Source of the DNA: Sphingobacteriales bacterium
Lineage (GTDB): Bacteria > Bacteroidota > Bacteroidia > Chitinophagales > UBA2359
Length of the DNA: 64,000 bases
Assembly (NCBI GenBank): GCA_016700115.1
Contig: CP064999.1
Span: 1,346,865-1,410,864, forward strand
Reading direction: 5' to 3'
In this document: one piece after another, positions 13,290-52,541 of the stretch
Layout of the letters: the number at the start of each line of letters is the position of its first letter
Numbering within the stretch: the stretch's first letter is position 1
Notes under the pieces: model-generated
Database searches by the model: none
Told to the model about the DNA's origin: nothing
What the model saw: only the letters and a program-made list of their open reading frames with translations
Made by a program: the position numbers and the translations under genes

Positions 13290-13367
13290 AAAGCCAAGAA
13301 AAAACCAAACCAAAAACAAAATCAAAACATAAAATTTTTTAAAAACAAAAAACCAAACCAAAACACC

Positions 13368-22774: not shown

Positions 22775-24508
22775 CTACCTAACCACCGCCACCTTCCCCC
22801 GCGCCAACACGCTCCCCAATTGCTCAACGGAATACAAATACACCCCCTCTTGCAAATGGGCTATTGAAATGGTTTTATGCGTTTCCCCAGCACCGAGAGT
22901 AGTTTGAAGCACGGTTTGACCGGTGAGGGAGAGGAGTTTTACCCCTAAATCCCCTGAAGGGGACTTTGACCCTTCGGGTAGGGCAAAGGTCAGCGTGTTT
23001 TGTGCGGGGTTGGGGTAAACTTGGATGAAGTTCTCACCCTTCAGGGGGTTGGGCGGCAGCCCCACCGCAATACCACTCCCCGAACGTGCATATACAAGCT
23101 GTTGGGTAACACTGGTATCGGAACAAACTATGGCGGTGAGGGTAACGAGGTAGTGGCCTTCTTCGGGATAGATGTGAGTGGGGTGGGTTGAGTTGCTGAC
23201 AGCCCCGTCGCCAAATTCCCAGATAAAATGCCCGCCGTCTATGCTGTCGGGATAAACGTATTGGCTTTGATTGAAGAAGGTGAACAATGCCGGCGGGGTG
23301 GTATCTTGCACGAATGTAAAATCTGCCTGCGGAAGACTGAGCAGCCCCATACAGTTGGTTTTGACAACCAACACATTGGCAGCACCGACCGGCTCGGTGC
23401 GGCCCACGCACAGAAAACCTCCATCGGGAGCAGGGTTAAAATCGTAAAAAAAATCGTTATTGGGTTCTGCGTCAAAATAGCGCACCCATAACGGTTCGCC
23501 ATCCGAACCTCTTACCTTCATAAGTAAGGCTTCTATTTTATCACTCGTTTGTCTTTTAGCACTTCCTATCATGATATAATTTTCTCCCAATTGATATATT
23601 TTGTCAAATACACTTTGTTGATAATCAGGGAAATACTGCCTTGTCCATAAGTTTTCTCCTGCTTTACTTATTTTTAAAAGCCTTGCATACTTGCCGGTTA
23701 CACCGGCAAGCATAATGCAAGAATCATTTGTAAATGTAAATGTACCGGCACCAGCTTTTTGACCTGCAAAATATGTGTTGAGATTAACGATATTCCCTTC
23801 AGGGTCAATACACATAAACAACATATCCGCATTCAAAGTATTGGGTATCAAATTTACACAACCTGTCGCATAACACCCACCGTCGGCAGTGGGAAGCAAG
23901 TCCAATATATAATTTCGATTGGAAAAGTTGTCGTAATATCTGCGCCAAACTATTTCACCATCTGTTATTTTGGTAATGACCAATCGGTAAGGTTCGGCTG
24001 CTGTTGTAAAGGCATTACCACCCAAATAATAGGTATTGGTTTCGGGGTAATATAACAAAGTGTAGCCATTTCCCTCATAAGGAGGATCGGGCAACTGAAA
24101 GTGATTTATTACCTCGCCGGCATGATTAACCTCTATAATGTATGGGTAGCTGTATATATCCCAAGGAAGCGTTTCATAAGGTTCGTTGTTCATCCACCCG
24201 CAAAAGGCATAACCAAATGGCGTAGTAATCAAATCTAACACCCCAAAAGTGCCAAAATCTTCGCCATAAGTCAACAGTGTTTGGTTTTCGGCATATTGAT
24301 CGGTAAAGAGTAAAAATGTTTTTTCTAATGATGTAGTCGTCAATGCTCCGCCACAACCTAAAACCAATAGCGTATCATTAATATAATATACTTTGTTTGA
24401 ACTCTGTCCATAACCCCAACCGATAGATTTTTCGAAATACTTTTCCTGTGCTGTCAGCCTAATACATCCATACAGACATAGACATATTATTATGATTAAT
24501 TGTTTCAT
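22775..24508 (-). CDS. T9SS C-terminal-domain cargo protein B2
   Basis: Probable start at MKQLIIIICLCLYGCIRLTAQ (the track ORF extends to 24562). Paralog of B1. Confidence 0.75.
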   Translation of the reverse strand: MKQLIIIICLCLYGCIRLTAQEKYFEKSIGWGYGQSSNKVYYINDTLLVLGCGGALTTTSLEKTFLLFTDQYAENQTLLTYGEDFGTFGVLDLITTPFGYAFCGWMNNEPYETLPWDIYSYPYIIEVNHAGEVINHFQLPDPPYEGNGYTLLYYPETNTYYLGGNAFTTAAEPYRLVITKITDGEIVWRRYYDNFSNRNYILDLLPTADGGCYATGCVNLIPNTLNADMLFMCIDPEGNIVNLNTYFAGQKAGAGTFTFTNDSCIMLAGVTGKYARLLKISKAGENLWTRQYFPDYQQSVFDKIYQLGENYIMIGSAKRQTSDKIEALLMKVRGSDGEPLWVRYFDAEPNNDFFYDFNPAPDGGFLCVGRTEPVGAANVLVVKTNCMGLLSLPQADFTFVQDTTPPALFTFFNQSQYVYPDSIDGGHFIWEFGDGAVSNSTHPTHIYPEEGHYLVTLTAIVCSDTSVTQQLVYARSGSGIAVGLPPNPLKGENFIQVYPNPAQNTLTFALPEGSKSPSGDLGVKLLSLTGQTVLQTTLGAGETHKTISIAHLQEGVYLYSVEQLGSVLARGKVAVVR

Positions 24509-35263: not shown

Positions 35264-37441
35264 TTGAAAACTAATTCCAAAAATCAGGTAAATGATTACC
35301 AACCTGTATCAGACACCATGAGCGACAACCGGCAACATCATATATTGGACACCCCAATTGAGTACCTGAAAGGCGTTGGCCCTAAACGGGGAGATGTGTT
35401 GCGCAAAGAGGCGGAAATATTTACCTTTGGCGACCTGCTGGAATATTATCCCTTCCGCTATATTGACAAAACCGAGCTACATACCATAGCCAATATCACC
35501 CCCGAACAAACCACCGTTCAGTTGAGAGGGGTACTGACCAACCTTCAAACTACCGGCGACCAACGTGCCAAGCGACTAACCGCCTTGTTTAATGACGGAA
35601 CCGGCAGCATCGAACTGGTATGGTTTCAAAACGTCTCTTACCAACGCGCTGCTCTAAAAGAAGAGAAAGCCTATTTGGTTTTTGGAAAACCTGTGTTTAA
35701 GTATGGCAGAATCAGCATCGTGCATCCTGAAATGCAGGCTGCTGATGAAGAGGCAGACTTTGACAGCCGCCTGGAACCGGTGTATAACAGTTCCGAAAAA
35801 ATGAAAAAAAACGGACTGACCAGCCGGGGGATTTATAAACTAATGCAGGTGCTGTTTGAAAAACTCCACCTTTTCGATGTGCCCGAAATTTTACCGCCTT
35901 TTATCCTTGATCAATACCGGCTCGCCGGCCGATTCGATGCGCTGAAAAACATACATCTGCCATCTGAAACCAATCAGGTTGCTCAGGCGCGCCTCCGTTT
36001 GATTTTCGACGAGTTCTTTTTTATTCAATCAAGGCTGCTTCAGCGTAAAAACAACCGCAAAACAGTGTCCCAGGGGTTTGTTTTTTCCGAAATCGGGCAT
36101 TATTTCAACACATTTTACCACCAATACCTGCCCTTTGAATTAACCGGCGCTCAAAAACGGGTGGTCAAGGAAATCCGGAAAGACACCCTTACCGGTCATC
36201 AGATGAACCGGTTGGTACAGGGAGATGTGGGCAGCGGTAAAACGGTGGTAGCTCTTCTGACCGCTTTAATTGCCATGGACAACGGGTTTCAGGCCTGCAT
36301 GATGGCCCCCACCGAAATTTTGGCACAGCAGCACTTTAACAACATGACCGCTTTGTTAAAAGACACAGACGTTAACATTGAATTGCTGACCGGCTCGGTA
36401 AAAGGGAAACAACGCCGCACCCTGCTCGAAAACCTTGAACTTGGGAGGATACATATTCTAATCGGTACTCATGCCCTGATTGAAAACACCGTAGTTTTTC
36501 AAAATCTCGGTTTGGTCATCATTGACGAACAACACCGGTTTGGAGTCGCTCAGCGAGCAAGCCTTTGGGAAAAAGCACAAGACAAATATCCGCATATCTT
36601 GGTCATGACCGCTACCCCGATTCCCCGAACACTGGCAATGACCGTTTATGGCGACCTCGATGTTTCCGTCATAGACGAACTGCCGCCCGGCCGCAAACCC
36701 ATCATTACCCGTCATGCCACAGACAAACACCGGCTGGAAATCTTTGAGTTTATGCGCAAACAAATTGCCGAAGGAAGGCAGGTGTATGTTGTCTATCCCC
36801 TCATTCACGAATCGGAAGCCCTCGATTACAAAGACCTTATGGACGGATATGAAAGCATCAGCCGCGCTTTCCCGATGCCGGACTATCAACTGAGCATTGT
36901 TCACGGAAAAATGAGTGCGCAAGACAAAGAATACGAGATGCAGCGCTTCAAACAGGGAATTACCCATATCATGGTTGCCACCACTGTTATCGAAGTCGGG
37001 GTTGATATTCCCAATGCCTCGGTCATGATCATCGAAAGTGCCGAAAGATTCGGGCTTTCTCAGCTCCACCAGTTGCGCGGACGGGTAGGAAGGGGCGGAA
37101 GCCAATCTTATTGCATTTTGGTAACCGGACATAAAATGACCAAGGAAGGTAAAGTGCGTATGAATACCATGGTCGAAACATCGGACGGGTTTAAAATTGC
37201 TGAAGTGGATTTAAAACTTCGCGGCCCCGGCGACATAGAAGGTACTCAGCAAAGCGGTATTCTCAATCTGAAATTAGCCGATATTGTTCGTGACTCTAAA
37301 ATTCTTCAGGCTGCAAGAGATGCTGCCACACAACTCATTCAAAAAGACCCCAACCTGAACTTCCCGGAACACAGACCTCTAAAACAGTATTTAGAAGCGC
37401 AAAGCAAAAATACACGAAGCCGGTGGAGTAAAATTTCTTAA
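35264..37441 (+). CDS. recG: ATP-dependent DNA helicase RecG (true start may be the internal MSDNRQ at 35318)
   Basis: Helicase motif I GDVGSGKT, then DExH, and the wedge domain pattern LKGVGPKRGDVL... The length is about 700 aa. Confidence 0.9.
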   Translation: MKTNSKNQVNDYQPVSDTMSDNRQHHILDTPIEYLKGVGPKRGDVLRKEAEIFTFGDLLEYYPFRYIDKTELHTIANITPEQTTVQLRGVLTNLQTTGDQRAKRLTALFNDGTGSIELVWFQNVSYQRAALKEEKAYLVFGKPVFKYGRISIVHPEMQAADEEADFDSRLEPVYNSSEKMKKNGLTSRGIYKLMQVLFEKLHLFDVPEILPPFILDQYRLAGRFDALKNIHLPSETNQVAQARLRLIFDEFFFIQSRLLQRKNNRKTVSQGFVFSEIGHYFNTFYHQYLPFELTGAQKRVVKEIRKDTLTGHQMNRLVQGDVGSGKTVVALLTALIAMDNGFQACMMAPTEILAQQHFNNMTALLKDTDVNIELLTGSVKGKQRRTLLENLELGRIHILIGTHALIENTVVFQNLGLVIIDEQHRFGVAQRASLWEKAQDKYPHILVMTATPIPRTLAMTVYGDLDVSVIDELPPGRKPIITRHATDKHRLEIFEFMRKQIAEGRQVYVVYPLIHESEALDYKDLMDGYESISRAFPMPDYQLSIVHGKMSAQDKEYEMQRFKQGITHIMVATTVIEVGVDIPNASVMIIESAERFGLSQLHQLRGRVGRGGSQSYCILVTGHKMTKEGKVRMNTMVETSDGFKIAEVDLKLRGPGDIEGTQQSGILNLKLADIVRDSKILQAARDAATQLIQKDPNLNFPEHRPLKQYLEAQSKNTRSRWSKIS

Positions 37442-37843
37442 AAAGTACCGGTTTGAATGACAGGGTAACCAAATTCCTCAGTACCTGATTTTCCTTTGTT
37501 TAAGCGTGTTTGGCGGGTACGGGAATCCTGAACCGGCATATACGTAACCAGCATCCTTTCTTATCTAACCACCTTGTCAACAATGGGTTGGAAAGAATTT
37601 TCAGAATGTTATAAGTCTATGTCAAAGTGCCAAGACAGTTCAAGCACTTTCAGCAGACCTTTGCCGTCATTCATTTTATTTTTGACATAGCCATTAAAAA
37701 CTGAAAATCCGTATTAGCTGCATTCAGTAGGGTGGTCAATTTCCAACAACATTATTTCCGAGCTTTATTATTATTATTAATTGGTACTATAAGAATTTCT
37801 AAAATTTTCATATTAAAAAAGTGCCTATAATTAAAGCAATTAT

Positions 37844-40800
37844 TCAAAATTTATCAAGTAAGGTTTCTACAACGGAAGGTAGGAGTCTGAATGAAAGCTT
37901 GTGTTGCCTAAACTTTTTTGCATTACTCACCTCTGTAAAATGCTTAATGGCTTTTTCCTCAATTTCTGTTTCTAACATGATCAGTTTTTCTTTCCAGGTA
38001 GGTTTCCATTCATCATACCAATGCTTCAAACCCAAATCTAACAGACTGATGCGAATAATGTAGTAATGGATATTGGGGTTATTATTAATGTAGTTGAGTT
38101 GAGACGTTTTTACATAAAACGGAACGGTATCTGCTCCTTCTTTTATAGATTTAATAGTGGTTTTAACATCAAAATAGAATGTTCGCTCAGTATAGTCGAA
38201 TAAAATATCATATTCAGGAGTACTTTTTGCTGTATATTCTACCTTAGCCCCTGGATATTGATTTTTTAAATAGGTATATACCAACATTTCTCCAATATAC
38301 CCAATTAAACCATTAGGGGTTGAACGGTCTTCTTTTTCTAAGTATTTCATGATTTCATCCAGGTTTTCATATATTTTTTTCAGCATTTCATCGGATTTGA
38401 TATTTTCCAATAAGCTTTGTGCAGTTTTTTTATCCATGTTTGGTGGAACATCAATATCTCCTTTTCCTATATTGGTGCCAATACCTATACTAGGTATAGT
38501 AGAAGTTTCACCGCTACCTGTAACAATAACAGGATTAGGGGAGTTAGTTTCATCTTGGGGTTTGTAAAACCTGCGTACTAATTTAACCAATACATTTCCA
38601 TCATTGGGGAATAAATCGGTTTCTTTGTCCATTAAAAATTTCACAACATCTTCTTGATGTGGATAGATATAAATATTGTACAGGTCTTTACCGTTTAATC
38701 GTTGGGCATTCCCTTTGTTGTGTACCTGCTCGTATAAAATGGAACTGCCAGCTTGCAAGATGTAGGTAAATGGTATTTCGTTGGTGCTAATGTATATATG
38801 GTAGTCTTTGGCATCTTCTTCTTTCCACTTTTGGTAATGGTGGTTTTCCCACTCATTTTTTTCTGCTTCCTTTTCGGCAAAACTGGTGTTTAGAGTAAGC
38901 TTAGTGCCTAAATGGACTTTTATGTTGTTGGTATAACTGTAGTAGGTGGCATCAATTATAGCATATTGCTTTCGGGCCTTGTCAAGGGCTTCTATCCATA
39001 TCTTTTCGGGGTGGTCAACAAGTTTTTCGTCTATATAAGCAGGGTTTTTGCTTGTATTTCGGAGGTAGATTGTAAGTATTGAAAGACTATCTGGCTTATC
39101 GAGATACATAGCCAATTGGTAATCATTTCCCTTCCTTGTAATATAGTCGGCAAGAAGTTTTTGTAGGGTGTAATAACGATAGCTGTTTCGCTCTATGTTG
39201 TTGTGCCAATCTTGTCGGCTTGACCAAAGCAGGGTATTATCGGCAAAATAGGAGATTGCTTTAAGTTGATTTAAATGAGTTTCATCAGTGTGGTCATTAT
39301 CGCGCAAATGTCGGCGTATGGTTAGTATAACAGATGAAGCAGTATGCAAACCTGCTTGTATTAAAAAGTTGCTTTTATCGTCAATTTTTCCTTCTTTAAG
39401 CCATGTTCTTATATTATCAGGTACTTTTTCGATTTCTAACAATAGTGCTGTATCTGGAGTTTCAATGCAAAGGCGGGGATTGAACCATGTATTAGGCAAT
39501 GGATAATCTGGATAAAATGACAGTTTTTTCTCAAAAACATTGCTCAATACCATTATTTCATTGAGATGAGAAAATTTTTCGATGGAGGGTTTATATGCAT
39601 CTTGGCTTAGCTGTCCACTTAAGCTCTGTGTGTAAGCCCAAATAAAACAAACTTGTTCGCTGTTTGTATAGGTTATAACAGTTTTAAGTTGGTTAGCTAT
39701 TTGGTTTATCGGAAATTTTCTGGTTTCGAATAGCTTATTGTAACGATCGTAGCCTACTCCAGCAGTACTCAACATTTTTTTAACTTTTTCCACAGTTTCA
39801 CCCTCCTCCTGATATTCCGGCAACAAAAGCGAAAGTTTAAACTGTGCGCTTTGTCCTTGAGCATGTTCTACGTACACATTGTTATTATAGATATAGTGCG
39901 ATAAGGGTTTCCCATCAATACGTATTTTTTCTCTGAACTGCTCTACCCAATTATCCTGCGAGAAATGGGAAATAACTTTTGCAGTGAGTACAGGTATGGT
40001 GGTTTGGGATGAGGATATTTCTATGTTTTCTAACCTGCTCAGGTATAATTCCTGAATATCATGGCTCCTTTTTATAATTACTTCAATAAAATCATGAGGC
40101 GCTCCATAAGTATTGATTAGGTCTCTGGCAAAATTGTCATCTTCACGAAGCAGTTGGTCATCGTGCTCATAAATTGGAAGTAATTCTTTTGGCAACAGGT
40201 AGTATTTGGGAGTAATGTTTCCACCTAATTGTTTGTGGAGATAGCTGTTCAACGGCTGATTTTGTGAGTGGTATTGTTTGTTTTTTCCTCGCGAGCTGAT
40301 GGTATATTCTTCATCGGGATTGGGCTGTAAAATGAAAGCACTTAGGAAGCTACTGCCAGATTGGATTTTGTCCAATATCTTGAGTTGAGTGAGTGAAACA
40401 GTAAAACTGTTTACCGTCCAATGGTCAATTATGTCAGCATTTTTTATGTGTAGCAATTCGGCAAACCCGATGCCGGCAAGCAGGGTTATATCAGTAAATT
40501 GGCAAACCTGTAAATCGGTACAGATCTGAATAAAATCGCTCAAATCAGCAAATTCAGATTCTGTAAGCCGAGACATTAACGGATTAAAATATACCTCCCC
40601 CATCGGATGGATTTGCCTGTCTTGGCAACGAATCCATGAGTAATCATTGGGTATAGAGGTTTCATTGGCATTTCGTGCTTTTGCAGTTTGATGCAGTTTG
40701 TTCAAATCGGTTATAACTTTTTCATAACATTGGGTGAAACGAGGCAACACCTGCACGTTCCAGTCTTGCAACAGGTTCTGCCATATTTCGTGGGGTTGCA

Positions 40801-42901
40801 TTAGAAGGCTGTCTAACTCGGGTATATCTTCGGAGGCTTTGAGGCTGTAATTTTCCAGAATACCGCTTGGGGCAATACCGGCACTGTTTTTGATTAGTTT
40901 GGATAAAGGTCTTTTCTGTTCGGAACAATTTTCAAACAACACTAATTTTGTGCGCAAATGAGGCTTGGCTTCCTGTATGTACAATAAAGTTTTGAGGATT
41001 TGGTGCTTGCTATTTCGGGTAAAATTTTTGTCGGGTAAAGAAAGAATATCGCCCAAAAACCATTCATAGTATTTATCAAGTAATTGAAAAAGTTGGTGTA
41101 AATGAGTGGCGTGGAATAGCTCAGCACCGCCATGCACAATGCCAGCTTGGTCTAATACTAAAGCCAGCTTTACAAAAGGCGGGTACAGAAAAACGATAGT
41201 TTCGTGATTTAAAATTTCATCAGGTGTTAATATACTATTATCAGTACAACGAATAAAGGGAAGGTTTTGAATCTTGGGATATTCTTTAGCTTTTTTTTGT
41301 ATTTCCTTTAACAAACTAACATATTCCTTATCAGACAGGGAAAGTAACCATTTTTCTAATCTATTGCGTTCGGCTTTGTTGAGTAATTTTAGTATAGAAA
41401 TGCGTTTAACTTTCAAATGCTCTTCAACTAAATCATAGTAATCTTCCAATGAGGGGTCTAACCAATCCCAATCGGTAATTCCTAATTTTTTGGGTGATAC
41501 TGTAAAAGGAGTATCATTTATACGCGTGTCGTCAGATTTGTCAGCATATCCTTTACTCGTGAGTAAGTTGCAGTTAAGTGTTTGTATCAGGTTTTCAAAA
41601 AAGAGTATGCGTATTTCGTTACCTTTCGGCAAATTAGACGTAACTGTTGCCAATAAGCATTTGGTAAAGGAAAGTAGTTCATCTCTTTGGTTGTTTTTGC
41701 GAAGATTTACAATGTATTCTTGAATACCTTTGCTGATTTCTAGTAGTGCTTTTTTGCTTTGAGGACGGTCTAACTGAATATCTTGACGTGCAGAATCAAT
41801 TTCGTAGGCAGCCGAATGGATAATAAACTTTAGCCCGAAATTAGTTTTTGTAATAGGGAAGAATTGGTAAAAGTTGTAAAGTTGTTGTTGGTTGTTAAGT
41901 GGGTTGTTGAGGTATAAAAGGCGGGTGAGGCAATCTCGTCCATCTCTTTTTACAAAGGGCAGCCCGTTTGCTTCTAAAAAATCTGGCTTTTCAATCTGTT
42001 TGCCATTAATAAAAACTCGTTTTAAATTTTTCAAAAACGCCAAAGAAGAAGCAATACCGATTTGTAGGTTGCCCTCTTCTAAGAGTTGATTAAGTGATTT
42101 GGCATGGCCTTGACCTAAAGGTAGATATAATAAAGTGCCGTTCTGAAAACTAAAGCCGTTAAAATGTTTCCCTCGTTCATTCAAAAAAGTTACACAGTTT
42201 TGTAGTTCTTTCTTTGAAAACAACACAATATTGTTGCCAGCAATAGTACTTCTACTTTCTTCCAAAGTTGCCGGATAGTAAGTGAAAATAGTTTTGGTTA
42301 ATAAGGGAGCATTGCTATTGCAATCTTCGGTAAAGCTTATTTTTTCGCCTCCCCAATTTTTAAATACTTCCCATTTGTTTAAATCGGACCATGAAAATAA
42401 AATGGGCGCTTTGTTTTCGTCAATAATGGCAATTTGTAACTCTTTTTCAGTTGTCTTTATTTCCTCTTTTTGTATTTTTTCCAAGGGTATTAAAAGGTCA
42501 TACATCAGTTTTGAACCTTGGCCATACTTGCCTATACTTTCAGGGTCCTCGTATTTTTCGCTTTTGTTTTTGGCAAGAAAATTTAGCAGCTGCCCTTTGC
42601 GTTCTTTGCTACCAAAGGTATCGGTATAAAAAGGCCTGCCATTGTTGATAACTGCCATTTGGTCTTTATCAAAAACAAAATATATTCTATCGGCTTCTGA
42701 ATCATCAGCATTTTGCAAAAATTCAAAGAAAATCTGTGCATTGGTTTTTATTGCAAAATTAGAAATTGTGCCCACTAATTGATCGACATTAGCCTCTACT
42801 CCGTATAGCTCTTTTAACCACTTATCTTCCGCAGATCCTAATTTATCCGGTAGATATGAGATATAAGATTTCAGATATTGTTCAATATTGCGTACTTTCA
42901 T
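37844..42901 (-). CDS. 1685-aa sacsin/NOV-like protein: N-terminal GHKL (HATPase_c_3-like) ATPase, C-terminal DUF3883-like (PD-(D/E)xK-like) domain; candidate effector of a Zorya-like system
   Basis: Bergerat-fold motifs are present: EFLQNADDSEA (N-box), VINNGRPF (G1) and GKYGQGSKLMY (G2). The C-terminus GYIGEMLVYTYLKNQY...EYDILFDYTERTFYFDVKTTIKS resembles DUF3883. It is the last gene of a tight three-gene operon with low GC. Confidence 0.65.
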   Translation of the reverse strand: MKVRNIEQYLKSYISYLPDKLGSAEDKWLKELYGVEANVDQLVGTISNFAIKTNAQIFFEFLQNADDSEADRIYFVFDKDQMAVINNGRPFYTDTFGSKERKGQLLNFLAKNKSEKYEDPESIGKYGQGSKLMYDLLIPLEKIQKEEIKTTEKELQIAIIDENKAPILFSWSDLNKWEVFKNWGGEKISFTEDCNSNAPLLTKTIFTYYPATLEESRSTIAGNNIVLFSKKELQNCVTFLNERGKHFNGFSFQNGTLLYLPLGQGHAKSLNQLLEEGNLQIGIASSLAFLKNLKRVFINGKQIEKPDFLEANGLPFVKRDGRDCLTRLLYLNNPLNNQQQLYNFYQFFPITKTNFGLKFIIHSAAYEIDSARQDIQLDRPQSKKALLEISKGIQEYIVNLRKNNQRDELLSFTKCLLATVTSNLPKGNEIRILFFENLIQTLNCNLLTSKGYADKSDDTRINDTPFTVSPKKLGITDWDWLDPSLEDYYDLVEEHLKVKRISILKLLNKAERNRLEKWLLSLSDKEYVSLLKEIQKKAKEYPKIQNLPFIRCTDNSILTPDEILNHETIVFLYPPFVKLALVLDQAGIVHGGAELFHATHLHQLFQLLDKYYEWFLGDILSLPDKNFTRNSKHQILKTLLYIQEAKPHLRTKLVLFENCSEQKRPLSKLIKNSAGIAPSGILENYSLKASEDIPELDSLLMQPHEIWQNLLQDWNVQVLPRFTQCYEKVITDLNKLHQTAKARNANETSIPNDYSWIRCQDRQIHPMGEVYFNPLMSRLTESEFADLSDFIQICTDLQVCQFTDITLLAGIGFAELLHIKNADIIDHWTVNSFTVSLTQLKILDKIQSGSSFLSAFILQPNPDEEYTISSRGKNKQYHSQNQPLNSYLHKQLGGNITPKYYLLPKELLPIYEHDDQLLREDDNFARDLINTYGAPHDFIEVIIKRSHDIQELYLSRLENIEISSSQTTIPVLTAKVISHFSQDNWVEQFREKIRIDGKPLSHYIYNNNVYVEHAQGQSAQFKLSLLLPEYQEEGETVEKVKKMLSTAGVGYDRYNKLFETRKFPINQIANQLKTVITYTNSEQVCFIWAYTQSLSGQLSQDAYKPSIEKFSHLNEIMVLSNVFEKKLSFYPDYPLPNTWFNPRLCIETPDTALLLEIEKVPDNIRTWLKEGKIDDKSNFLIQAGLHTASSVILTIRRHLRDNDHTDETHLNQLKAISYFADNTLLWSSRQDWHNNIERNSYRYYTLQKLLADYITRKGNDYQLAMYLDKPDSLSILTIYLRNTSKNPAYIDEKLVDHPEKIWIEALDKARKQYAIIDATYYSYTNNIKVHLGTKLTLNTSFAEKEAEKNEWENHHYQKWKEEDAKDYHIYISTNEIPFTYILQAGSSILYEQVHNKGNAQRLNGKDLYNIYIYPHQEDVVKFLMDKETDLFPNDGNVLVKLVRRFYKPQDETNSPNPVIVTGSGETSTIPSIGIGTNIGKGDIDVPPNMDKKTAQSLLENIKSDEMLKKIYENLDEIMKYLEKEDRSTPNGLIGYIGEMLVYTYLKNQYPGAKVEYTAKSTPEYDILFDYTERTFYFDVKTTIKSIKEGADTVPFYVKTSQLNYINNNPNIHYYIIRISLLDLGLKHWYDEWKPTWKEKLIMLETEIEEKAIKHFTEVSNAKKFRQHKLSFRLLPSVVETLLDKF

Positions 42902-42925
42902 AAAAAAGTATATTTATTAGAATAA

Positions 42926-43594
42926 TTACTTTTTGCGCAGAAGGATTCGAAACTCTACTCGCTTCGATTTGACTGTATCTGGCTTTGATTGTGTTAAGTT
43001 ACCTTTACTGTCTAACATACGTGAAAAAGAATATCCACAGGATATAGAATTCATCTTAATAAATTGCACAAAACTTTTACTAAAATTACCATCATTTTCT
43101 AACTTATTTATTATATATTTCTGCACCTCCAAAGCTCGATTACTAGATAGATTTAGGTTAAAAAGATAACTACCAACTTGGTTTGTATGACCCTCTATTC
43201 GTACTTCGCTGATTTCAAATTTAGCATCTTTTTGTTTGCTTTCTTTATAAAATTTTTGTAACTCGCCATAAAAGATTGGAATAAACACATCTATAGCTTT
43301 TAATATTTTGGGTTGGGGATTGGCATCACCGTCTAAAAACAAAGCACTTTTTACATTATCAGTGGCAAAACGTATGGTAGCATTGTCGGCTACGCTGACC
43401 ATACTTCGAATGCTTGATGATTCTAACTTGTTTTTAAATACAGTTGCCAATTCGTGATATTTCGCTTGTTCCAATTCCGTGTCTCGCTGAAACAGGGCTA
43501 AAGACACGACAATGAATATGACCATAAACCCCGAAAACAAATCGGCAAAACTTATCCAAACATTGTGTTCATCGGGTTGGTTGCGGGTAAACAT
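42926..43594 (-). CDS. MotB/ZorB-like protein: N-terminal TM helix with conserved Asp plus C-terminal OmpA-family peptidoglycan-binding domain
   Basis: WISFADLFSGFMVIFIVVSL matches the MotB plug/TM signature (W..yADlmT.lmaFF.V). EGHTNQVGSYLFNLNLSSNRALEV matches the OmpA motif (GHTD..G....N..LS..RA..V). Confidence 0.7.
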   Translation of the reverse strand: MFTRNQPDEHNVWISFADLFSGFMVIFIVVSLALFQRDTELEQAKYHELATVFKNKLESSSIRSMVSVADNATIRFATDNVKSALFLDGDANPQPKILKAIDVFIPIFYGELQKFYKESKQKDAKFEISEVRIEGHTNQVGSYLFNLNLSSNRALEVQKYIINKLENDGNFSKSFVQFIKMNSISCGYSFSRMLDSKGNLTQSKPDTVKSKRVEFRILLRKK

Positions 43595-43612
43595 GTTGTA
43601 GTAGGGTTTTTA

Positions 43613-44911
43613 TCATTGGTGGTTGGCAGATTGTTGAAGGGTGTGTAACAGACGGTCTATTTTATCGGTCATATTGGCAATGGCATTTGTGCGGTCTTGC
43701 ATTTGCTTCATTTCATCTTCCTGCAATCTCCAATTATCATACAACTGACGGGTATTTTCAAGCAATTCTTCTAATAAGGTAAATTGCTTTTGTAGCTGTT
43801 CTGTTATTGCTGAATTGCTATGACTAGCATTGCTATATTGGTCAACAGCATCTTTAAATTTTTGACTGCTTTCTTCTAATGCTGTTTGGGCACGTTGTTG
43901 TAATTCCGCTATTTTTTCAAATGTTTTACTCAGATTTTCTGTATTGTTTTTCAGGATTTCCCCTATTTTTTCCTGAATATTAGCATCTATAATGCCTAAT
44001 GTATTTTCTAAATTGGTGTAGCTATTTTTTAAATTGTTTATTTGGTTTTCAGAAGTAGTTTTAAATTCTGTAGCTATCTTTTCTTGGAGTTCCAGTGCTG
44101 CAATAGTATTATCTTTAATGCTGTCTCCAAATGTTTTGACAACTGCTTCTACCAGTTCTTTAGATTTTGTTAATTCTTCTGTCATATACACTCTCAAAGT
44201 AGTTGTTAGCTTTACAAACTCATCATTTATTGTCTTAGCTTGCTCTTTGGTTAGACTTAGAGTTTGATCACCCATAATTTTAATATATGCTTCAAGACTT
44301 ACTTTCAAATCATTAATCATTTCTCCCAATTGCTCCCGCATATATTCTCCGGCAGTAGTCATTACCCCTAATAGGTCTTTTAATTTTTGCAGTTGTTCGA
44401 AAGTTGTTTCCTTTATTGTATGACGAACAGACATTAACGCTTCATTTACATCATGACTAAAGTTGCGTAATAATCCATTGTCGGAAATTAATCTTTCTTT
44501 GACATCATGTATTAGCTCATTATTATTTTCTTGTAATTCTACCATATCCCACAAAAGTTGTTGTGGATTTTTTTTCATATACTCTTCATTCAATTCTATC
44601 TGCTCTTCCAAAGTAATCCGGTATTTAATTATGGAACTCCAAATAATACTCGCCAAAATGCCTATAAGAGAAAATAAAAATTTGTTTGACAATTGACGTA
44701 CAATTTCCGATAGATCTCCGCCGAGTTTAAAATCTTTCAGTACCCACCATAAGACCCCGAATGAAAAGAACACGCCTGTTGAAGTACAAAAAGTGGGAAT
44801 ATAACTAACAAGAGTACTCCTTATCGAATGCCTTTTGAAGACTAAATAATAAGGTACAGCAAAACATATAATTATAACAATAGGAGACAAAAACAAAGTG
44901 ATTAAATCCAT
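43613..44911 (-). CDS. membrane protein with 3 N-terminal TM helices and ~330-aa cytoplasmic coiled-coil tail (ZorA-like partner candidate)
   Basis: The hydrophobic segments span 5-25, 37-58 and 77-98, followed by an uninterrupted heptad-rich sequence. It lies 19 bp upstream of the MotB-like gene. Its topology differs from canonical MotA/ExbB. Confidence 0.6.
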   Translation of the reverse strand: MDLITLFLSPIVIIICFAVPYYLVFKRHSIRSTLVSYIPTFCTSTGVFFSFGVLWWVLKDFKLGGDLSEIVRQLSNKFLFSLIGILASIIWSSIIKYRITLEEQIELNEEYMKKNPQQLLWDMVELQENNNELIHDVKERLISDNGLLRNFSHDVNEALMSVRHTIKETTFEQLQKLKDLLGVMTTAGEYMREQLGEMINDLKVSLEAYIKIMGDQTLSLTKEQAKTINDEFVKLTTTLRVYMTEELTKSKELVEAVVKTFGDSIKDNTIAALELQEKIATEFKTTSENQINNLKNSYTNLENTLGIIDANIQEKIGEILKNNTENLSKTFEKIAELQQRAQTALEESSQKFKDAVDQYSNASHSNSAITEQLQKQFTLLEELLENTRQLYDNWRLQEDEMKQMQDRTNAIANMTDKIDRLLHTLQQSANHQ

Positions 44912-45194
44912 GCCAAAAATTTAATTTAGTTGTATCTATCAACTTTAAGTTAAAAAAATCTCACAAGATAACAAAAAGTACTTAACTTTATTTTGTTACT
45001 ATAAAAATAAAATGGCACAAGCCTCAATACTTAAGTATGCACAATTTAGAAAAACTAAACATAAAGCAATTTTTGATTAAATTAACCTGAATTATGATTA
45101 AGTGTAAAATGGTATTAGTGTTTTGTTTTTATTGTAAATTGAAGTGATTTTTAGATTTTCCTTAGGAAGTGTTAAAATCACCTACTGACATTGA

Positions 45195-45480
45195 ACTATT
45201 GTTCCTCTGCATCAAACCATCTAACCTCTGCAATGAACCATCGCACCCTTGCATTGAACCAAATCGCCCCTGAATTGAACCGTTGCATCCCTGCAATGAA
45301 CCATTGCATCCCTGCAATGAACCGTTGTGCCTCGGCATTGAACCATTGCGACTATGTTTAGAGACGTTGTGCCCTTGCATTGAACCATATCGCCCCTGCA
45401 AAGAACTATTGCGCCTCTGCATTGACTGATTGCACCTCTGCAATGAACCAATGTACCCCTGCAATAAACCATTGCACCCC
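45195..45480. repeat. degenerate 21-bp tandem repeat array (~13 units), each unit containing the palindrome TGCAATG-AAC-CATTGCA
   Basis: CCCTGCAATGAACCATTGCAT units lie head-to-tail. The two overlapping ORFs on the minus strand (45162..45464 and 45221..45472) are translation artefacts of the 7-aa periodicity. Confidence 0.85.
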
Positions 45481-45910
45481 TTGTTTTTTGCCCCGAACAG
45501 CGTTTAAATGGGGTAATCAGGCAACTTTTTGTTCATCACGTTCGCAAGTTAAAGGCGGGCAAACAGACGGTAACCAAAAATCCGGTTAATGCAAATTACC
45601 CTGTTATACCTAACCCTAAACAACACAAAATACCCGGATAAATACTTTTTGGAAATAACAACACTTCCAATTCAGATATATGGCAGGTCGGTCATTGGCT
45701 TCATATTGCCGACAACCAACAGTCTGTTTGTTCTTAAAACCTGACCTGAATAGCTCGCCTTCTTGCCTGATAGCAGCAGAAAAAGTAAACCGCCGGGTAA
45801 TTTTACAAAACCGGCAGTTTCAAAAAATTTATCCGGCATTGTAATCCTGCCGTTTGTTTTTTTGCGATGAGTGTGGGTACAGGGGATATTTCCCACCCGT
45901 TAATTTAAAA

Positions 45911-47443
45911 CTATTCCCCTTCTTTATCAAAATTGTACAAACCTTCACCGTCCGAAAATTCTTCGGAGTTTTTGGGAGTAACCTCTTTTTGTTCCTCAAA
46001 CAACTCCATATCACTTTCCTCGATAGGGCTGTAAAAATGATGATGGTTATCGGAAACGCTGTGATGGGCAGGGGTTCCGTCAGAAGGGGGTGTTTCCGAT
46101 TCGGAATTTTCGGAAATATCCTGAGTTTCTGTTTTGTCTTCAACGGTAGTTGTTTCTTCAGATACCTGTTCGGCATTATCTCCGGCAATGGTTTCTTCGT
46201 TGCCCGATTCCTGAGTTGTTGCTATGTCAGGGGCAGGCATGCTGTTCGCGTTTTCCTCATTTTCAAAGTCTTCAAGCACCGGCACAACCGGATTTTCTGA
46301 CGAAGAAACGGCTTCTTTGCTCTCGTCTTTGTTTTGCTTTACCGGCTTTTTGTTTTTTTGGTGATGTTTGTTGCCTTCGGGTTGTTTTACCGGTTCCGGC
46401 TTTTCTTTTTCTTTTGGTTGGACTTTCTCCAATTTTTTCTGTTCCTGCTGCAATTGTCTGTTCAGGTCGTTCAACACCTCCTGCATTTCTTTCAGTTTAG
46501 CTTCATTCGCCTCTAATTGGGTGGTAATCATTTTAATTTTGGCTTCCCGAAGTTGCGCTTCTAATTTGCCATCGGTAGTTTTGAGGCGGTTATGCTGAAA
46601 CTGTAGGTCGTTTCTGTCGTCTCTGATTGTTTTTTCGCTTCTCGCAATAATATCTTTCACCCCTCTAATCCGGTGTTCAATCCGGCGGAGGTTGCCTTTT
46701 TGCCTTTCTTCTTTCACTAAGGTAAAGGCATCATTAAACAGCACCCTCAGTTGTTCGCGTAAAGCTCCGGCAAGTCTTAGCCGGTTGGATTCATCCTGCA
46801 ATCCCTTTAGTTTATCAAAAATGACATTCAGGTTTTGGTTCGGTGAAACAGATTCCATGATTTTCTGAATCCGGGCTTGTATGGTTTCGACGGCTTGTCT
46901 GGCCTCGTGGTTGGCTTCTTTGCGCAGGGATTTCAATATATCAAACGCCTCGTTTATCTTGTCGCGCAACCACCCTGTATGTTCGCGGGTCAGGTCTTTT
47001 TCCTGAAAATAGTTGTTCACCTTGTCCCAAAAGGCTTTGGTGAGTTGCCACATTTCGTTGTCGTATTCGGTCAGAGATTTTACCTGTTCTACAAGCCCGT
47101 CAATTTCCTTGGTCAGTTTCTGGGATAATTTGTTCGACAAAACCCTTACCCGCCATTGGGTTTCGGCAAGTTTGACCAAATCGGTGTTCCGGGTTTTAAC
47201 CTCGTCCGGCAGCAGGTTTTCTTCCATCACCGAGCGTTCGATATAGGTGTGGTTTTCGGGCAGTTGTGTCAAATCAATCTGATCCGTGTTTTCCAATGCC
47301 TTTTTCTCAAACTCGTCTGTGATGGTTTCTTTGGGAAGTGTCCATACATCTATAATATCATCGGCAAGCCGAAGACGGACAATCACCAAACATTCTGCAT
47401 CATTTTCGTTTGCGCCCCAAAAGGCTATTTTATCCTTAATCAT
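45911..47443 (-). CDS. hypothetical coiled-coil protein with acidic C-terminal tail
   Basis: 510-aa ORF with extended heptad regions and a Glu/Asp/Ser-rich C-terminus. No motif was recognised. Confidence 0.5.
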   Translation of the reverse strand: MIKDKIAFWGANENDAECLVIVRLRLADDIIDVWTLPKETITDEFEKKALENTDQIDLTQLPENHTYIERSVMEENLLPDEVKTRNTDLVKLAETQWRVRVLSNKLSQKLTKEIDGLVEQVKSLTEYDNEMWQLTKAFWDKVNNYFQEKDLTREHTGWLRDKINEAFDILKSLRKEANHEARQAVETIQARIQKIMESVSPNQNLNVIFDKLKGLQDESNRLRLAGALREQLRVLFNDAFTLVKEERQKGNLRRIEHRIRGVKDIIARSEKTIRDDRNDLQFQHNRLKTTDGKLEAQLREAKIKMITTQLEANEAKLKEMQEVLNDLNRQLQQEQKKLEKVQPKEKEKPEPVKQPEGNKHHQKNKKPVKQNKDESKEAVSSSENPVVPVLEDFENEENANSMPAPDIATTQESGNEETIAGDNAEQVSEETTTVEDKTETQDISENSESETPPSDGTPAHHSVSDNHHHFYSPIEESDMELFEEQKEVTPKNSEEFSDGEGLYNFDKEGE

Positions 47444-49287: not shown

Positions 49288-49746
49288 ATGGGCAAAAAGT
49301 CATTACAGATACAGCAACTTAACAGTAAAATGCGGGCTTATGCAAGCCTGCAAAAGGTAGCCCCACCGCCTACAGGGTGGATAAAAGCTATCCGTACTGC
49401 ACTTGGAATGAGTATGCAGCAGTTGGGCAACCGCCTTTCCATTACCAAACAAAGTGTGCAGGATGTTGAACGCAGAGAAAAAAACGGCTCCATTACCATC
49501 AAATCCCTTCGGGAAGCGGCTAAGGCTTTGGATATGCAGTTGGTATATGGTTTTGTTCCGGTTGATGGCAGTTTGGAAGAACTGATAGACCGCAAGGCAA
49601 AAGAACTGGCAATACAAATTGTTTTGCGTACCAGCAACACTATGAAACTGGAAGACCAGGAAAATACAAAGCAACGCATTGAAAAAGCAATTCGGGAAAT
49701 GGCAACAACCCTTAAAAACGAAATGCCTAAAACTTTATGGGATTAG
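49288..49746 (+). CDS. mobile mystery protein A (XRE-type HTH, Fic-partner/antitoxin-like)
   Basis: HTH ...ALGMSMQQLGNRLSITKQSVQDVE... and a 10-bp overlap with the downstream Fic gene. The pairing matches TIGR02612/TIGR02613. Confidence 0.6.
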   Translation: MGKKSLQIQQLNSKMRAYASLQKVAPPPTGWIKAIRTALGMSMQQLGNRLSITKQSVQDVERREKNGSITIKSLREAAKALDMQLVYGFVPVDGSLEELIDRKAKELAIQIVLRTSNTMKLEDQENTKQRIEKAIREMATTLKNEMPKTLWD

Positions 49747-50333
49747 ATTTAGAGTACATATACGGGCAAACACCGTTGGATGAAGACGAAAAAGAAGGGT
49801 TGCTAATCCCCACCATTGCTACACGCGGCGAGTTGGACGAGTTTGAACAGCAAAATATTGAACAAGCAGTATTGTGGTCACTCAATCGTTCTTTCAAAGC
49901 AGAAAATGTGTTCACCGAAGAATTTTTGGAAGCAGTGCATAAGCGTATGTTTGGCAACTTATGGGCATGGGCAGGCGAGTTTCGCAAAACGAATAAAAAT
50001 ATTGGAGTTGACAAATGGCAAATTCCTGCTGCGCTATGGACATTGCTTGATGATGTAAAGTTTTGGTATGCCAACGGAATTTACAGTCCCGATGAAATTA
50101 CCATACGCTTTAAGCACCGTTTGGTAAGCATACATTGTTTTCCTAACGGCAACGGCAGGCATAGCCGCCTGATGGCTGATATTGTGATTGAGAAGATTTA
50201 CAAACAGCCGCATTATACATGGGGTGCCGGCAATTTGGTTAAGCAGGGCGACCAACGCAGCAATTACCTCAGTGCCATTAAAGCAGCCGACAGCGGAGAC
50301 ATTAAACCATTGATAAATTTTGCAAGGTCTTAA
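49737..50333 (+). CDS. Fic/Doc family protein (mobile mystery protein B)
   Basis: Fic motif HCFPNGNGRHSRL (HxFx[DN]GNGRxxR). Confidence 0.75.
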   Translation: MGLDLEYIYGQTPLDEDEKEGLLIPTIATRGELDEFEQQNIEQAVLWSLNRSFKAENVFTEEFLEAVHKRMFGNLWAWAGEFRKTNKNIGVDKWQIPAALWTLLDDVKFWYANGIYSPDEITIRFKHRLVSIHCFPNGNGRHSRLMADIVIEKIYKQPHYTWGAGNLVKQGDQRSNYLSAIKAADSGDIKPLINFARS

Positions 50334-50644: not shown

Positions 50645-51010
50645 TGGTAAATGAAAAGTGAAAAACTAAAAGTGAAAAGTGAAAAACCTGAAGGGTTGAA
50701 TATGAATAGCCATTGTTAACTGTCAATGGTTAATTGTCAATTGTCATTTGCAAAAAACCCTGAAGGGGTTAAATTTGATTAGCCGTATGTGAAACCTACG
50801 GGAATATGTGAAAAGTGAAAAGTGAAAAACCTGAAGGGTTGAATATGAATAGCCATTGTTAATTGTCAATGGTTAATTGTCAATTGTCATTTGCAAAAAA
50901 CCCTGAAGGGGTTAAATTTGATTAGCCGTATGTGAAACCTACGGGAATATGTGAAAAGTGAAAAACCTGAAGGGTTGAATATGAATAGCCATTGTCAATG
51001 GTCATTTGCA
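50645..51010. repeat. ~130-bp tandem repeat, about 2.7 copies, with internal GTGAAAAGTGAAAAAC direct repeats and CCATTGTTAACTGTCAATGG palindrome
   Basis: Units begin near 50672, 50808 and 50943. The last is truncated at the IS256-like left end. It is related to the sequences at 17395..17440, 17746..17840 and 22700..22785. Confidence 0.8.
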
Positions 51011-51019
51011 AAAAACCTT

Positions 51020-52541
51020 GGGGGAATGTTCAAAAAAGTGTGTCAACACAAATTACAGAAATAAAAATTTTAATTATGAAAAAGGACAAGAGAGAAAGTA
51101 GATCAGCTTCCCCATTGGAAGACTTTGATTATCCGTCATTTGAAAAGAAGCGATAAAACGCCTCACGTCTGGGGATCGGTTATTAGGCAAAGAAGGCGTA
51201 TTAACGGGTATGGTACAGCGTTTGGTGAATGCAGCTTTATCAGGCGAGATAGACAACCACATCAAGACCGACCGTTCGCAGGGTGTTAGCAATCGCAGGA
51301 ACGGCTATACTTCGAAGACCTTAAACACGGAGTTAGGGGCAGTGCAGATTTCGCCTCCTCGGGACAGGCGTGGCGAGTTCAGTCCGATTATTGTAGGGAA
51401 ATGGGAGCGTGAGTTGGGTACAGGCTTAGAGCAACAGGTTCTGATGATGTATGCTTATGGGAACAGTTATCGGGATATTCAGCTGCAACTTATGGAGCTA
51501 TACGGTGTAGAGTTTGGGGTATCGTGGATAACAGAGATAACAGACCAGGTACATGTGGAGGTGTCATCGTGGCAGCAGCGCGCCTTATTACCCTTTTATG
51601 TGGTGGTCTATTTAGACGGCATTTATTACACAAGTCGGGAAAGTGGTCGGTCAGCTAAGAGAGCTGTTTATTCGGTCTATGGAATAGACGCAGAGGGAAA
51701 TCGATGTATTGGGCATTTACGTTCGCAATACAGAGGGGGCTTCTGAGTGGGGTCTGATTCTGGAAGACTTAAAAAACGAGGTGTTGAAGATGTGCTATTC
51801 TTTTGTATAGACGGGCTTAGCGGTTTAGATGAGGCCATACTTTCGGTTTTTCCTCAATCCTTCGTCCAACGCTGTATTGTCCATATGCTCCGCAGCAGCA
51901 CTAAATTTGTTGCCAGAAAAGATATTAAGCAAGTCAGTGCAGACCTTAAAAAGATATACAATGCTGCCGGCGAACCCGAAGCGAGAGCAGCCTTAGCAGG
52001 TTTTGAGCAAACCTGGGGAAAGAAATATCCCGGTATCGCAAGGGCTTGGGAACAAGAATGGGCAAATTTAATGGTGTTTATGGATTTCGGAGCAAATATC
52101 CGCCGAATGATTTATACGACTAATCCTGTGGAAGGTTTGCACCGGCAAATACGCAAAGTAACGAAAAGCAAAGGTTCATGGGTAAACGACAAGGCTTTAG
52201 TCAAACAAATTTATCTCATCCTGATATATGGGAGAGGCGGGTGGAAAACTAAAGTTACAAATTGGACCTCAGTATCACACGAATTGCGTACCCGCTTCGA
52301 AGACCGTTTTACAAAGCATGTGGATGTTTAACTAACCGATGAGTAGGAAGTAAAGGAATTGAAAACAGCGTTGTTTCCCACATTCCAACAGCCTTTACTA
52401 CTCAAAAAAAAGAAGGGTTTGAGTAGTAGGCTATTGAAATGTGGAAAACTATATAACTAAAGTACTCTTAAATTTAACATGTTAAATCCACTCTTGATTT
52501 TCAAAAATAATCGCTTTTGACACACTTTTTCGAACATTCCC
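51020..52541 (+). mobile_element. IS256-family insertion sequence, degraded
   Basis: Imperfect terminal IRs GGGAATGTTCAAAAAAGTGTGTCAACA and, inverted at the right end, GGGAATGTTCGAAAAAGTGTGTCAAAAGCG. The internal IS256-type transposase is split over at least 3 frames. Confidence 0.65.
51075..52331 (+). pseudogene. IS256-family (Mutator-like) transposase, frameshifted
   Basis: The segments MKKDKRESRSASPLEDFDYPSFEKKR*, LGKEGVLTGMVQRLVNAALSGE...LRSQYRGGF* and then MGSDSG...FCIDGLSGL...VQRCIVHMLR... are collinear with IS256 transposases but lie in different frames. Confidence 0.65.

What the first reader, a model, noticed from the sequence alone, without database searches (positions are those of the whole stretch)
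45195..45480. Array of ~13 head-to-tail 21-bp units each carrying the palindrome TGCAATG-AAC-CATTGCA, ~280 bp upstream of the candidate defense operon
A periodic array of short perfect palindromes without unique spacers is not a CRISPR array and is not coding. The ORFs through it are periodic GSLQGCN artefacts. Arrays of identical dyad sites are what iterons and arrays of transcription-factor or partition-protein binding sites look like. They can also form a cruciform-prone or recombinogenic region. The position immediately 5' of the A/B/effector operon suggests regulation of it, for example cooperative repressor binding, or a phase-variable or copy-number-variable switch.
Basis: seen in the sequence. 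Interest (0 to 1): 0.6.

Follow-up and report, generated by a model that had tools for sequence, protein, structure and literature searches.

The report
Decaying 21-bp intergenic minisatellite
A real but degenerate run of fourteen 21-base repeats sits between two genes in a wastewater Bacteroidota genome; it looks like an ordinary decaying tandem repeat, not a control element of the neighbouring phage-defence operon.

Summary
The array is real: 14 head-to-tail units of exactly 21 bp at 45187-45480, 276 bp upstream of a ZorA/ZorB/TmtA defence operon on the minus strand. The stated content is overstated. Only one unit (45292-45308) carries the perfect palindrome TGCAATG-AAC-CATTGCA. Units are 67% identical to each other. 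The two arms pair no more often than column shuffling gives (59 of 98 against 58.6). The link to the operon is not conserved: the other operon copies recovered (53-58% ZorA identity; three distinct upstream sequences) have 175-264 bp upstream regions without any such repeat. A sister strain has the orthologous array next to the 510-aa gene on the other side, with one unit fewer. Its array diverges 6.9% against 2.5% in adjacent unique non-coding DNA. No second array was found in 185,579 species genomes, JGI metagenomes, IMG/VR, plasmids or phages. There is no Rep, Par or cas gene, DnaA box, Rfam hit or coding signal. Best reading: an orphan, lineage-specific, decaying minisatellite at the edge of a hypervariable spot downstream of recG. 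A binding-site array or a low-copy dispersed palindromic element in the unseen rest of the genome cannot be excluded. Interest is low.

The parts
45187..45480 (.). Array of 14 head-to-tail 21-bp units, consensus TGCAWTGAACCATTGCRCCYC, 48% GC
   Evidence: Tandem Repeats Finder. Register and column counts. Enrichment over shuffles. Unit identity matrix. GC content.
45292..45308 (.). The only unit with the perfect palindrome TGCAATG-AAC-CATTGCA. The right arm of one unit and the left arm of the next form a second palindrome around the YCCC spacer.
   Evidence: The alternative register with 4-nt loops appears in the DNA fold.
44912..45186 (-). Unique, very AT-rich spacer (23% GC) between the array and the zorA-like ATG. 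This is the probable promoter region of the operon.
   Evidence: GC content. Relaxed Bacteroidota -7-like motifs (TAnnTTT) lie 12-152 bp upstream of the ATG, and none lies in the array. Homologous operons manage with 175-264 bp of upstream DNA.
45481..45910 (-). Unique non-coding stretch between the stop codon of the 510-aa gene and the array. It is 97.5% identical in the sister strain.
   Evidence: 11 mismatches in 433 positions.
45911..47443 (-). Context: 510-aa coiled-coil protein of unknown function. The array lies downstream of this gene, and it is the neighbour the array keeps in the sister strain.
37844..44911 (-). Context: ZorA-like (43613-44911), ZorB-like (42926-43594) and TmtA-like (37844-42901) defence operon, 36% GC.
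   Evidence: PADLOC matches: TmtA 4.6e-153, ZorB 6.4e-28, ZorA 3e-12. GC content.

Best explanation
The array is a lineage-specific, non-coding minisatellite. A 21-bp unit with a 7-3-7 hairpin potential was amplified head to tail, by replication slippage or unequal recombination, in the long spacer downstream of the 510-aa gene. It has since been decaying by point mutation and occasional whole-unit gain or loss. It lies at the edge of a hypervariable, island-accepting spot downstream of recG. The ZorA/ZorB/TmtA operon is its neighbour in this strain, not its functional partner. The operon's own promoter most likely lies in the 275-bp AT-rich stretch between the array and the ATG.

Shown: the structure, the degeneracy, the lack of dyad maintenance, the faster divergence, the one-unit difference between strains, absence from homologous operons, and absence from large collections.

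Inferred: the amplification mechanism, near-neutrality, and the position of the island boundary.
For: - Exact 21-bp period with no indels, but 67% mean unit identity and star-like divergence with no neighbour effect.
- Arm complementarity is 59 of 98 cells, against a column-shuffle mean of 58.6 +/- 2.5. The palindrome is therefore inherited from the founder unit and is not selected.
- The sister strain (510-aa protein 99% identical) has the orthologous array at the same place, with one unit fewer at the end next to the 510-aa gene.
- Between the two strains the array differs at 12 of 173 positions (6.9%). The adjoining unique DNA differs at 11 of 433 (2.5%; Fisher p = 0.017), and the 510-aa gene at 17 of 1533.
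- The other ZorA/ZorB/TmtA operon copies recovered (53-58% ZorA identity) lack any such repeat. Where an upstream gene is visible (L007, L009, L010) it is a divergent MFS transporter gene; the 175-264 bp upstream stretches fall into three distinct sequences.
- A related species has the thiolase/510-aa pair with no array downstream of it.
- The region downstream of recG differs in three relatives, so this is a rearrangement and insertion hotspot.
- Array GC (48%) resembles the core side (41-44%), not the operon (36%) or its upstream spacer (23%).
- The window carries many other intergenic tandem repeats, so the genome is prone to them.
- No Rfam match, no Pfam match, no plasmid or phage similarity, and no DnaA boxes.
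Against: - Absence of conservation among operons only 53-58% identical does not exclude a strain-specific regulatory role.
- The 21-bp spacing equals two helical turns, so all units face one side of the helix, as in real binding-site arrays.
- Some positions are invariant in all 14 units (A8, C19), and the CCYC spacer is as conserved as the arms.
- Bacteria tend to delete useless DNA, yet 294 bp has persisted long enough for units to diverge about 33%.
- I could not see the far end of the array in the sister strain. I therefore cannot show that the array exists without the operon.
- Only 64 kb of a 5.97-Mb genome was searchable for dispersed single units.
Confidence: 0.6

Rival explanations
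1. The array is a set of in-phase binding sites for a host DNA-binding protein, such as a repressor, a nucleoid-associated protein or a xenogeneic silencer. Cooperative binding would modulate the ZorA/ZorB/TmtA promoter lying 125-275 bp away.
For: - The 21-bp spacing is two helical turns, and the array is upstream of and adjacent to the AT-rich promoter region.
- The core TGAACCAT and the spacer C19 are highly conserved among units.
- The array is retained in two strains.
Against: - No array upstream of the other homologous operon copies recovered.
- The dyad symmetry is not maintained.
- The array evolves 2.8 times faster than the neighbouring non-coding DNA.
- No regulator gene is adjacent. 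The nearest helix-turn-helix gene is paired with a Fic gene 4 kb away.
- No second site exists in 64 kb of this genome or 53 kb of related DNA.
Confidence: 0.13
2. The array is a tandem cluster of a small mobile palindromic element, like REP/REPIN elements or cyanobacterial small dispersed repeats. Single copies would be scattered elsewhere in the unseen 5.9 Mb of the genome.
For: - The unit is about 20 bp, palindromic and extragenic.
- REP sequences can form evenly spaced tandem arrays (PMC3116915).
- Tandemly repeated 'small dispersed repeats' of about 20 bp are described (PMC2884548).
- The genome does carry another dispersed hairpin element (window 11727-11803 and 12928-13004, also in a related species) and many heptamer arrays.
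Against: - No other copy within 3-4 mismatches in the remaining 63.7 kb of the window, nor in 53 kb from a 99%-identical strain and a related species.
- No two-unit match forming an array in 185,579 species genomes, JGI metagenomes or IMG/VR; there were only 5 + 5 + 0 single hits, consistent with chance.
- No REP-associated tyrosine transposase (RAYT-type) gene was noticed among the window genes that were scanned.
Confidence: 0.12
3. The array is a recombination substrate or scar that marks the right-hand junction of the inserted defence operon. It would be either a hotspot where islands are exchanged or a by-product of the insertion.
For: - The array lies between low-GC operon DNA and core-like DNA.
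- The opposite boundary of the variable region is at about 37538, just after recG, and three relatives carry three different contents there.
Against: - No direct or inverted repeat links the two island ends.
- There is no integrase or recombinase in the island.
- The other operon copies recovered (a different upstream neighbour where one is visible) have no array.
Confidence: 0.08
4. The array is a plasmid- or phage-type iteron set or a partition centromere (sopC/parC-like), or it encodes a small heptad-repeat protein.
For: - Directly repeated units of about 21 bp next to an AT-rich stretch resemble the layout of a plasmid replication origin.
- Open frames of 100 and 83 aa cross the array.
- A gene caller called an 83-aa ORF in the sister contig.
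Against: - The locus is chromosomal and flanked by metG, recG and a thiolase gene on a 5.97-Mb contig.
- No Rep, ParA or ParB gene in the neighbourhood.
- No DnaA box in the spacer.
- No similarity to 72,556 plasmids or 50,697 phages.
- The ORFs have no Pfam match and no true homologue.
- The ORF start is not conserved between strains.
- Substitutions fall 4/6/2 across the three codon phases.
Confidence: 0.03

Closest known systems
Bacterial intergenic minisatellites / VNTR loci (e.g. MIRU-type loci used for strain typing)
   Same: Head-to-tail units of tens of base pairs in intergenic DNA. Whole-unit copy-number difference between close strains. Units that diverge from one another. No dedicated protein partner. 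Minisatellites are described as a class of small variable segment in PMC2884548.
   Different: Only one locus of this unit is seen, so it is not a family. The units are much more degenerate (67% identity) than typical typing VNTRs. The founder unit was a near-perfect 17-bp palindrome.
REP / REPIN / BIME palindromic extragenic elements and cyanobacterial small dispersed repeats
   Same: Short (about 20 bp) imperfect palindromes in extragenic space that can occur in evenly spaced tandem arrays (PMC3116915; mention in PMC2884548).
   Different: Those are defined by tens to hundreds of dispersed copies and, for REPs, an associated RAYT transposase. No second copy was found in 117 kb of this and related genomes, and none of the large-collection scans found another array.
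Plasmid iterons and partition centromeres (F sopC, R1 parC)
   Same: Direct repeats of about 20 bp phased with the DNA helix, next to an AT-rich stretch. sopC units also contain a short inverted repeat (from my own knowledge of these systems).
   Different: There is no rep or par gene, no DnaA box and no plasmid context, and the units are poorly conserved. This is a resemblance of form only.

Membership tests
Bacterial minisatellite / VNTR | Head-to-tail repeats of a unit of roughly 10-100 bp | tested here: met
   14 units of 21 bp with no indels.
Bacterial minisatellite / VNTR | Copy number differs between strains by whole units | tested here: met
   The sister strain has one unit fewer at the end next to the 510-aa gene. 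Shifting by one unit lowers mismatches from 52 (ten sister units, unshifted) to 12 (the nine that remain comparable after the shift). Only 9.3 units of the sister array are visible.
Bacterial minisatellite / VNTR | Non-coding, intergenic | tested here: met
   It lies in a 999-bp spacer between two minus-strand genes. There is no Pfam match, homologue or codon-phase signal.
Iteron array of a replication origin | Adjacent rep gene whose product binds the repeats | tested here: not met
   Pfam and PADLOC scans of the neighbouring genes show ZorA/ZorB/TmtA, a coiled-coil protein, a thiolase, an HTH+Fic pair and transposases, but no Rep.
Iteron array of a replication origin | DnaA boxes and a plasmid or phage replicon context | tested here: not met
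   No DnaA box (up to 1 mismatch) between 44912 and 45911. The locus is on a 5.97-Mb contig flanked by metG and recG. No plasmid or phage similarity.
Partition centromere (sopC/parC/parS array) | Adjacent parA/parB (or parM/parR) genes | tested here: not met
   None was found among the genes scanned across about 50 kb of the window.
REP / REPIN / small dispersed repeats | Many dispersed copies in extragenic DNA of the same genome | tested here: inconclusive
   There are zero further copies in the window and in 53 kb of related DNA. The remaining 5.9 Mb of the genome could not be read.
REP / REPIN / small dispersed repeats | Associated RAYT (Y1) transposase | not tested
   No such gene was seen among the ORFs scanned. 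The rest of the genome was not available.
CRISPR array | Repeats separated by unique spacers of similar length; cas genes or a leader | tested here: not met
   Units abut with no spacers. There are no cas genes nearby.
Phase-variable simple-sequence contingency locus | Near-identical units that slip at high frequency and alter a promoter or reading frame | tested here: not met
   Units are 67% identical. Unit order and private variants are conserved between strains. The array is at least 125 bp from the nearest promoter-like motif.
Conserved cis-regulatory element of the ZorA/ZorB/TmtA operon | Present upstream of homologous operons | tested here: not met
   Loci L007-L012 have 175-264 bp upstream regions (three distinct sequences; some loci are the same sequence from different samples), with no 21-bp repeat and no motif hit.

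The most novel reading that the evidence does not exclude
The array is a strain-lineage-specific platform of helically phased sites for an unidentified host protein. That protein would silence or insulate a horizontally acquired ZorAB-TmtA defence operon. Alternatively, it is the first tandem cluster of a small mobile palindromic element in this Bacteroidota lineage.
Probability: 0.1. Interest if true: 0.5.

Novelty: new member of a known kind. Interest (0 to 1): 0.15.

Why it matters
It matters little for biology at large. The useful result is negative: a striking periodic array next to a defence operon is not part of that operon's conserved anatomy and should not be annotated as its regulator, as an iteron set or as a CRISPR-like array. 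It could serve as a strain-typing marker for this wastewater Sphingobacteriales lineage. It also breaks short-read assemblies, since nine sister-strain contigs end at or inside it. The neighbourhood is more interesting than the array itself: a rare ZorA/ZorB + TmtA hybrid operon sits in a hypervariable spot downstream of recG.

Tried and rejected
- **Two-unit degenerate pattern (TGAACCNTTGNNNNNNTGCANTGAACC).** I scanned genome contigs, metagenome contigs and viral contigs. Only 5, 5 and 0 isolated single hits came back, in unrelated taxa and with no periodicity around them, as expected by chance. These scans cannot detect diverged arrays or single dispersed units. The source genome itself is not in genome contigs.
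- **Whether the sister strain has the operon beyond the array.** The sister contigs stop in the array. An exact look-up of ZorB found only the source strain. The RecG cluster route led to a 99%-identical strain (L028) whose DNA downstream of recG is entirely different and lacks both the array and the 510-aa gene within 8.6 kb. ZorA has no variant at 90% identity or more in the protein collection. This is weak evidence, because the sister's RecG is not on record either.
- **Coding hypothesis.** Within-array variation by unit position split 27/19/14 across the three codon phases. That is my own tally from the column counts, and my hand-computed chi-square gives p of about 0.12. It hinted at a CRGAMVH frame. 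Between-strain substitutions put only 2 of 12 at that frame's third positions.
- **phmmer with the 100-aa ORF.** It returned only unrelated GS[LI]Q heptad proteins. The look-up of one of them (P0179) found nothing.
- **Rfam.** No match at gathering threshold or at E <= 1.
- **Island-end repeats.** No convincing direct or inverted repeats link the ends.
- **Higher-order periodicity.** Tandem Repeats Finder reports 84- and 42-bp periods, but the unit identity matrix does not support them.
- **Folding.** RNA z = -2.4 and DNA z = -4.3. This is what any palindrome-derived repeat gives and is not evidence of function.

Full report
**What is there.**
- Tandem Repeats Finder reports one array at 45189-45481 with period 21, 14.0 copies, 69% matches and no indels.
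- In register with the one perfect palindrome, there are 14 units from 45187 to 45480. The consensus is TGCAWTGAACCATTGCRCCYC.
- With up to 3 mismatches the 17-mer TGCAATGAACCATTGCA occurs 9 times in the 64-kb window, all inside the array. The expectation is 0.39, and 0 of 100 shuffles reach 9.
- A Logan short-read contig from SRR11674018 is identical to the window over 9.3 kb including the array. The structure is therefore not an assembly artefact.
- The array lies in a 999-bp spacer between two minus-strand genes. It begins 276 bp upstream of the ATG (44911) of a 432-aa gene. It ends 430 bp downstream of the stop codon (45911) of a 510-aa gene.

- Only one unit (45292-45308) has the perfect 7-3-7 palindrome. 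Two units have 6 of 7 complementary positions. The mean is 4.2 of 7.
- Across all units 59 of 98 arm positions are complementary. Shuffling the right-arm letters among units gives 58.6 +/- 2.5. There is no covariation, so the dyad is a relic of the founder unit and is not maintained.
- Conservation is asymmetric. The left TGCA is much better kept than the right TGCR, and the CCYC spacer is as conserved as the arms.
- Mean pairwise unit identity is 67%. It does not depend on the distance between units.
- Because both arms are the same word, adjacent units also form a second palindrome around the 4-nt spacer. This explains the moderately low folding energies (RNA z = -2.4, DNA z = -4.3).

**Context.**
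- PADLOC identifies the downstream minus-strand genes as ZorA-like (43613-44911), ZorB-like (42926-43594) and TmtA-like (37844-42901; E = 4.6e-153).
- The flanks are housekeeping genes: metG and recG on one side, and the 510-aa coiled-coil gene and a thiolase on the other.
- The exact ZorA protein is recorded from 'MAG: Sphingobacteriales bacterium' on a 5.97-Mb contig.
- Several neighbouring proteins carry type IX secretion sorting domains, which fits Bacteroidota.
- No Rep or Par protein was found in the genes scanned and no cas gene near the array. There is no DnaA box in the spacer. There is no tRNA gene or Rfam family. There is no similarity to plasmid or phage records.

**Is it tied to the operon?**
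- Only four other ZorA relatives exist among 5.8 billion protein clusters, at 53-58% identity.
- Their loci (L007-L012) all carry the same ZorA/ZorB/TmtA trio. Some are the same sequence recovered from different samples.
- L007, L009 and L010 have a divergent MFS transporter gene just upstream. In L008, L011 and L012 the contig ends before any upstream gene.
- Their upstream regions are 175-264 bp, fall into three distinct sequences, and contain no 21-bp repeat and no match to the unit core.
- The array is therefore not part of the operon's conserved anatomy.
- In the window, relaxed Bacteroidota -7-like motifs lie 12-152 bp from the ATG, inside the 23%-GC stretch. None lies in the array.

**Is it tied to the other neighbour?**
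- A sister strain, whose 510-aa protein is 99% identical, was assembled in nine Logan samples.
- All nine contigs end within about 30 bp before the array's edge or inside the array. Three extend into it.
- The array is orthologous. After allowing one unit fewer at the end next to the 510-aa gene, units match in order and share private variants such as GAGGTGCAATCAGTCAATGCA.
- Divergence is 12 of 173 (6.9%) in the array. It is 11 of 433 (2.5%) in the adjoining unique DNA (Fisher p = 0.017), and 17 of 1533 in the gene.
- In 9 of the 12 differences the sister carries the consensus base. This count is my own reading.
- The array thus changes faster than neutral-looking neighbouring DNA and gains or loses whole units. 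It is not turning over rapidly.
- A related species (61% identity for the 510-aa homologue) has the thiolase/510-aa pair but no array. Instead it has a long-hairpin dispersed element and a convergent TPR gene.

**The locus is a variable spot.**
- A strain 99% identical across metG-recG (L028) diverges completely from window position about 37538 onward. It carries a toxin-antitoxin pair with a duplicated recG 3' end, a PLD nuclease and other genes.
- The related species has DsbA and HRDC genes after recG.
- Array GC (48%) matches the core side (41-44%), not the operon (36%) or its upstream spacer (23%).
- I infer that the array belongs to the core side of the junction. I could not prove this, because the far end of the sister's array was not recoverable.

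**Is it dispersed?**
- A degenerate two-unit pattern found only 5, 5 and 0 isolated hits in genome contigs, metagenome contigs and viral contigs. They are in unrelated taxa and show no periodicity, which is the chance expectation.
- No single unit within 3-4 mismatches occurs elsewhere in the window or in 53 kb from the 99%-identical strain and the related species.
- The remaining 5.9 Mb of the source genome could not be read. A low-copy REP-like family is therefore not excluded.
- REP sequences are known to form evenly spaced tandem arrays (PMC3116915). Tandemly repeated 'small dispersed repeats' of about 20 bp are described (PMC2884548).

**Is it coding?**
- Three frames are open through the array, as expected for a stop-free repeat.
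- They have no Pfam match.
- A phmmer search of the 100-aa ORF against 1.84 billion representatives gave only unrelated GS[LI]Q heptad proteins.
- Substitutions between strains fall 4/6/2 across the three codon phases.
- The frame that a gene caller used in the sister contig is closed by a TAA just 5' of the array in the window.

**Verdict.**
- The best-supported reading is an orphan, lineage-specific, decaying intergenic minisatellite at the edge of an island-accepting hotspot (confidence about 0.6).
- A helically phased protein-binding array (about 0.13) and a tandem cluster of a low-copy mobile palindrome (about 0.12) remain possible. Both are cheaply testable on the full genome and with long reads.
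- Iteron, centromere, CRISPR, contingency-locus and coding readings each fail a defining test.
- Novelty is low: a new member of a known kind. Interest is low.

Noticed in passing
window 37844-44911 (- strand): The 'candidate defense operon' is a hybrid. ZorA-like and ZorB-like genes are followed by a 1685-aa TmtA (Tiamat)-like sacsin-type ATPase (PADLOC E = 4.6e-153). Only five ZorA relatives exist among 5.8 billion protein clusters, and every recovered locus shows the same three-gene order (truncated by the contig end in L010).
   Followed up: partly
window ~37169-37538; L028 3171-4368: The region downstream of recG is a hypervariable insertion spot. A 99%-identical strain carries a UPF0175/DUF3368 toxin-antitoxin pair with a duplicated recG 3' end, then a PLD-family nuclease and unrelated genes. 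A related species has DsbA and HRDC genes there (L030).
   Followed up: partly
window 17441-17745: A perfect heptamer array, CAATTAA x 43.6 copies at 100% identity, lies in a convergent intergenic region. More heptamer arrays are nearby (TTTTCAC at 17772-17836 and 22741-22776). Unlike the 21-bp array, this one looks recently expanded and highly mutable.
   Followed up: no
window 11727-11803 and 12928-13004; L027 9793-9866: A long-hairpin element of about 77 bp occurs twice in the window, upstream of paralogous 177-aa ORFs. It is 85-87% identical to a copy in a related species, located right downstream of that species' 510-aa homologue. It is a dispersed MITE- or REP-like element.
   Followed up: no
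window 50649-51004: A 143-bp repeat (2.4 copies, 94% identical) is itself built from heptamer runs (TGAAAAG, ATTGTCA, GTGAAAA). It lies just upstream of an IS256-family (Transposase_mut) gene that is split into two ORFs (51210-51746 and 51747-52331).
   Followed up: no
window 542-1075, 12155-12688, 13368-13901: Three paralogous 177-aa ORFs have no Pfam match (only the copy at 12155-12688 was scanned). The copies at 12155 and 13368 are each preceded by A-rich short tandem repeats (AATCGTA, AAAACC-type) at 12029-12155 and 13230-13368.
   Followed up: no
window 45911-47443 (- strand); L027 9397-9530: The 510-aa coiled-coil protein with an acidic tail has homologues that stay next to a thiolase gene in the relatives examined, but it has no known domain. 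In the related species its C-terminal region contains a coding 21-bp (7-aa) repeat that is unrelated in sequence to the intergenic array.
   Followed up: partly
window 49288-50333 (+ strand): An HTH_3 (Xre-type) gene overlaps a Fic/DOC gene by 10 bp, a probable toxin-antitoxin-like pair. It is conserved in the sister strain (L018).
   Followed up: no
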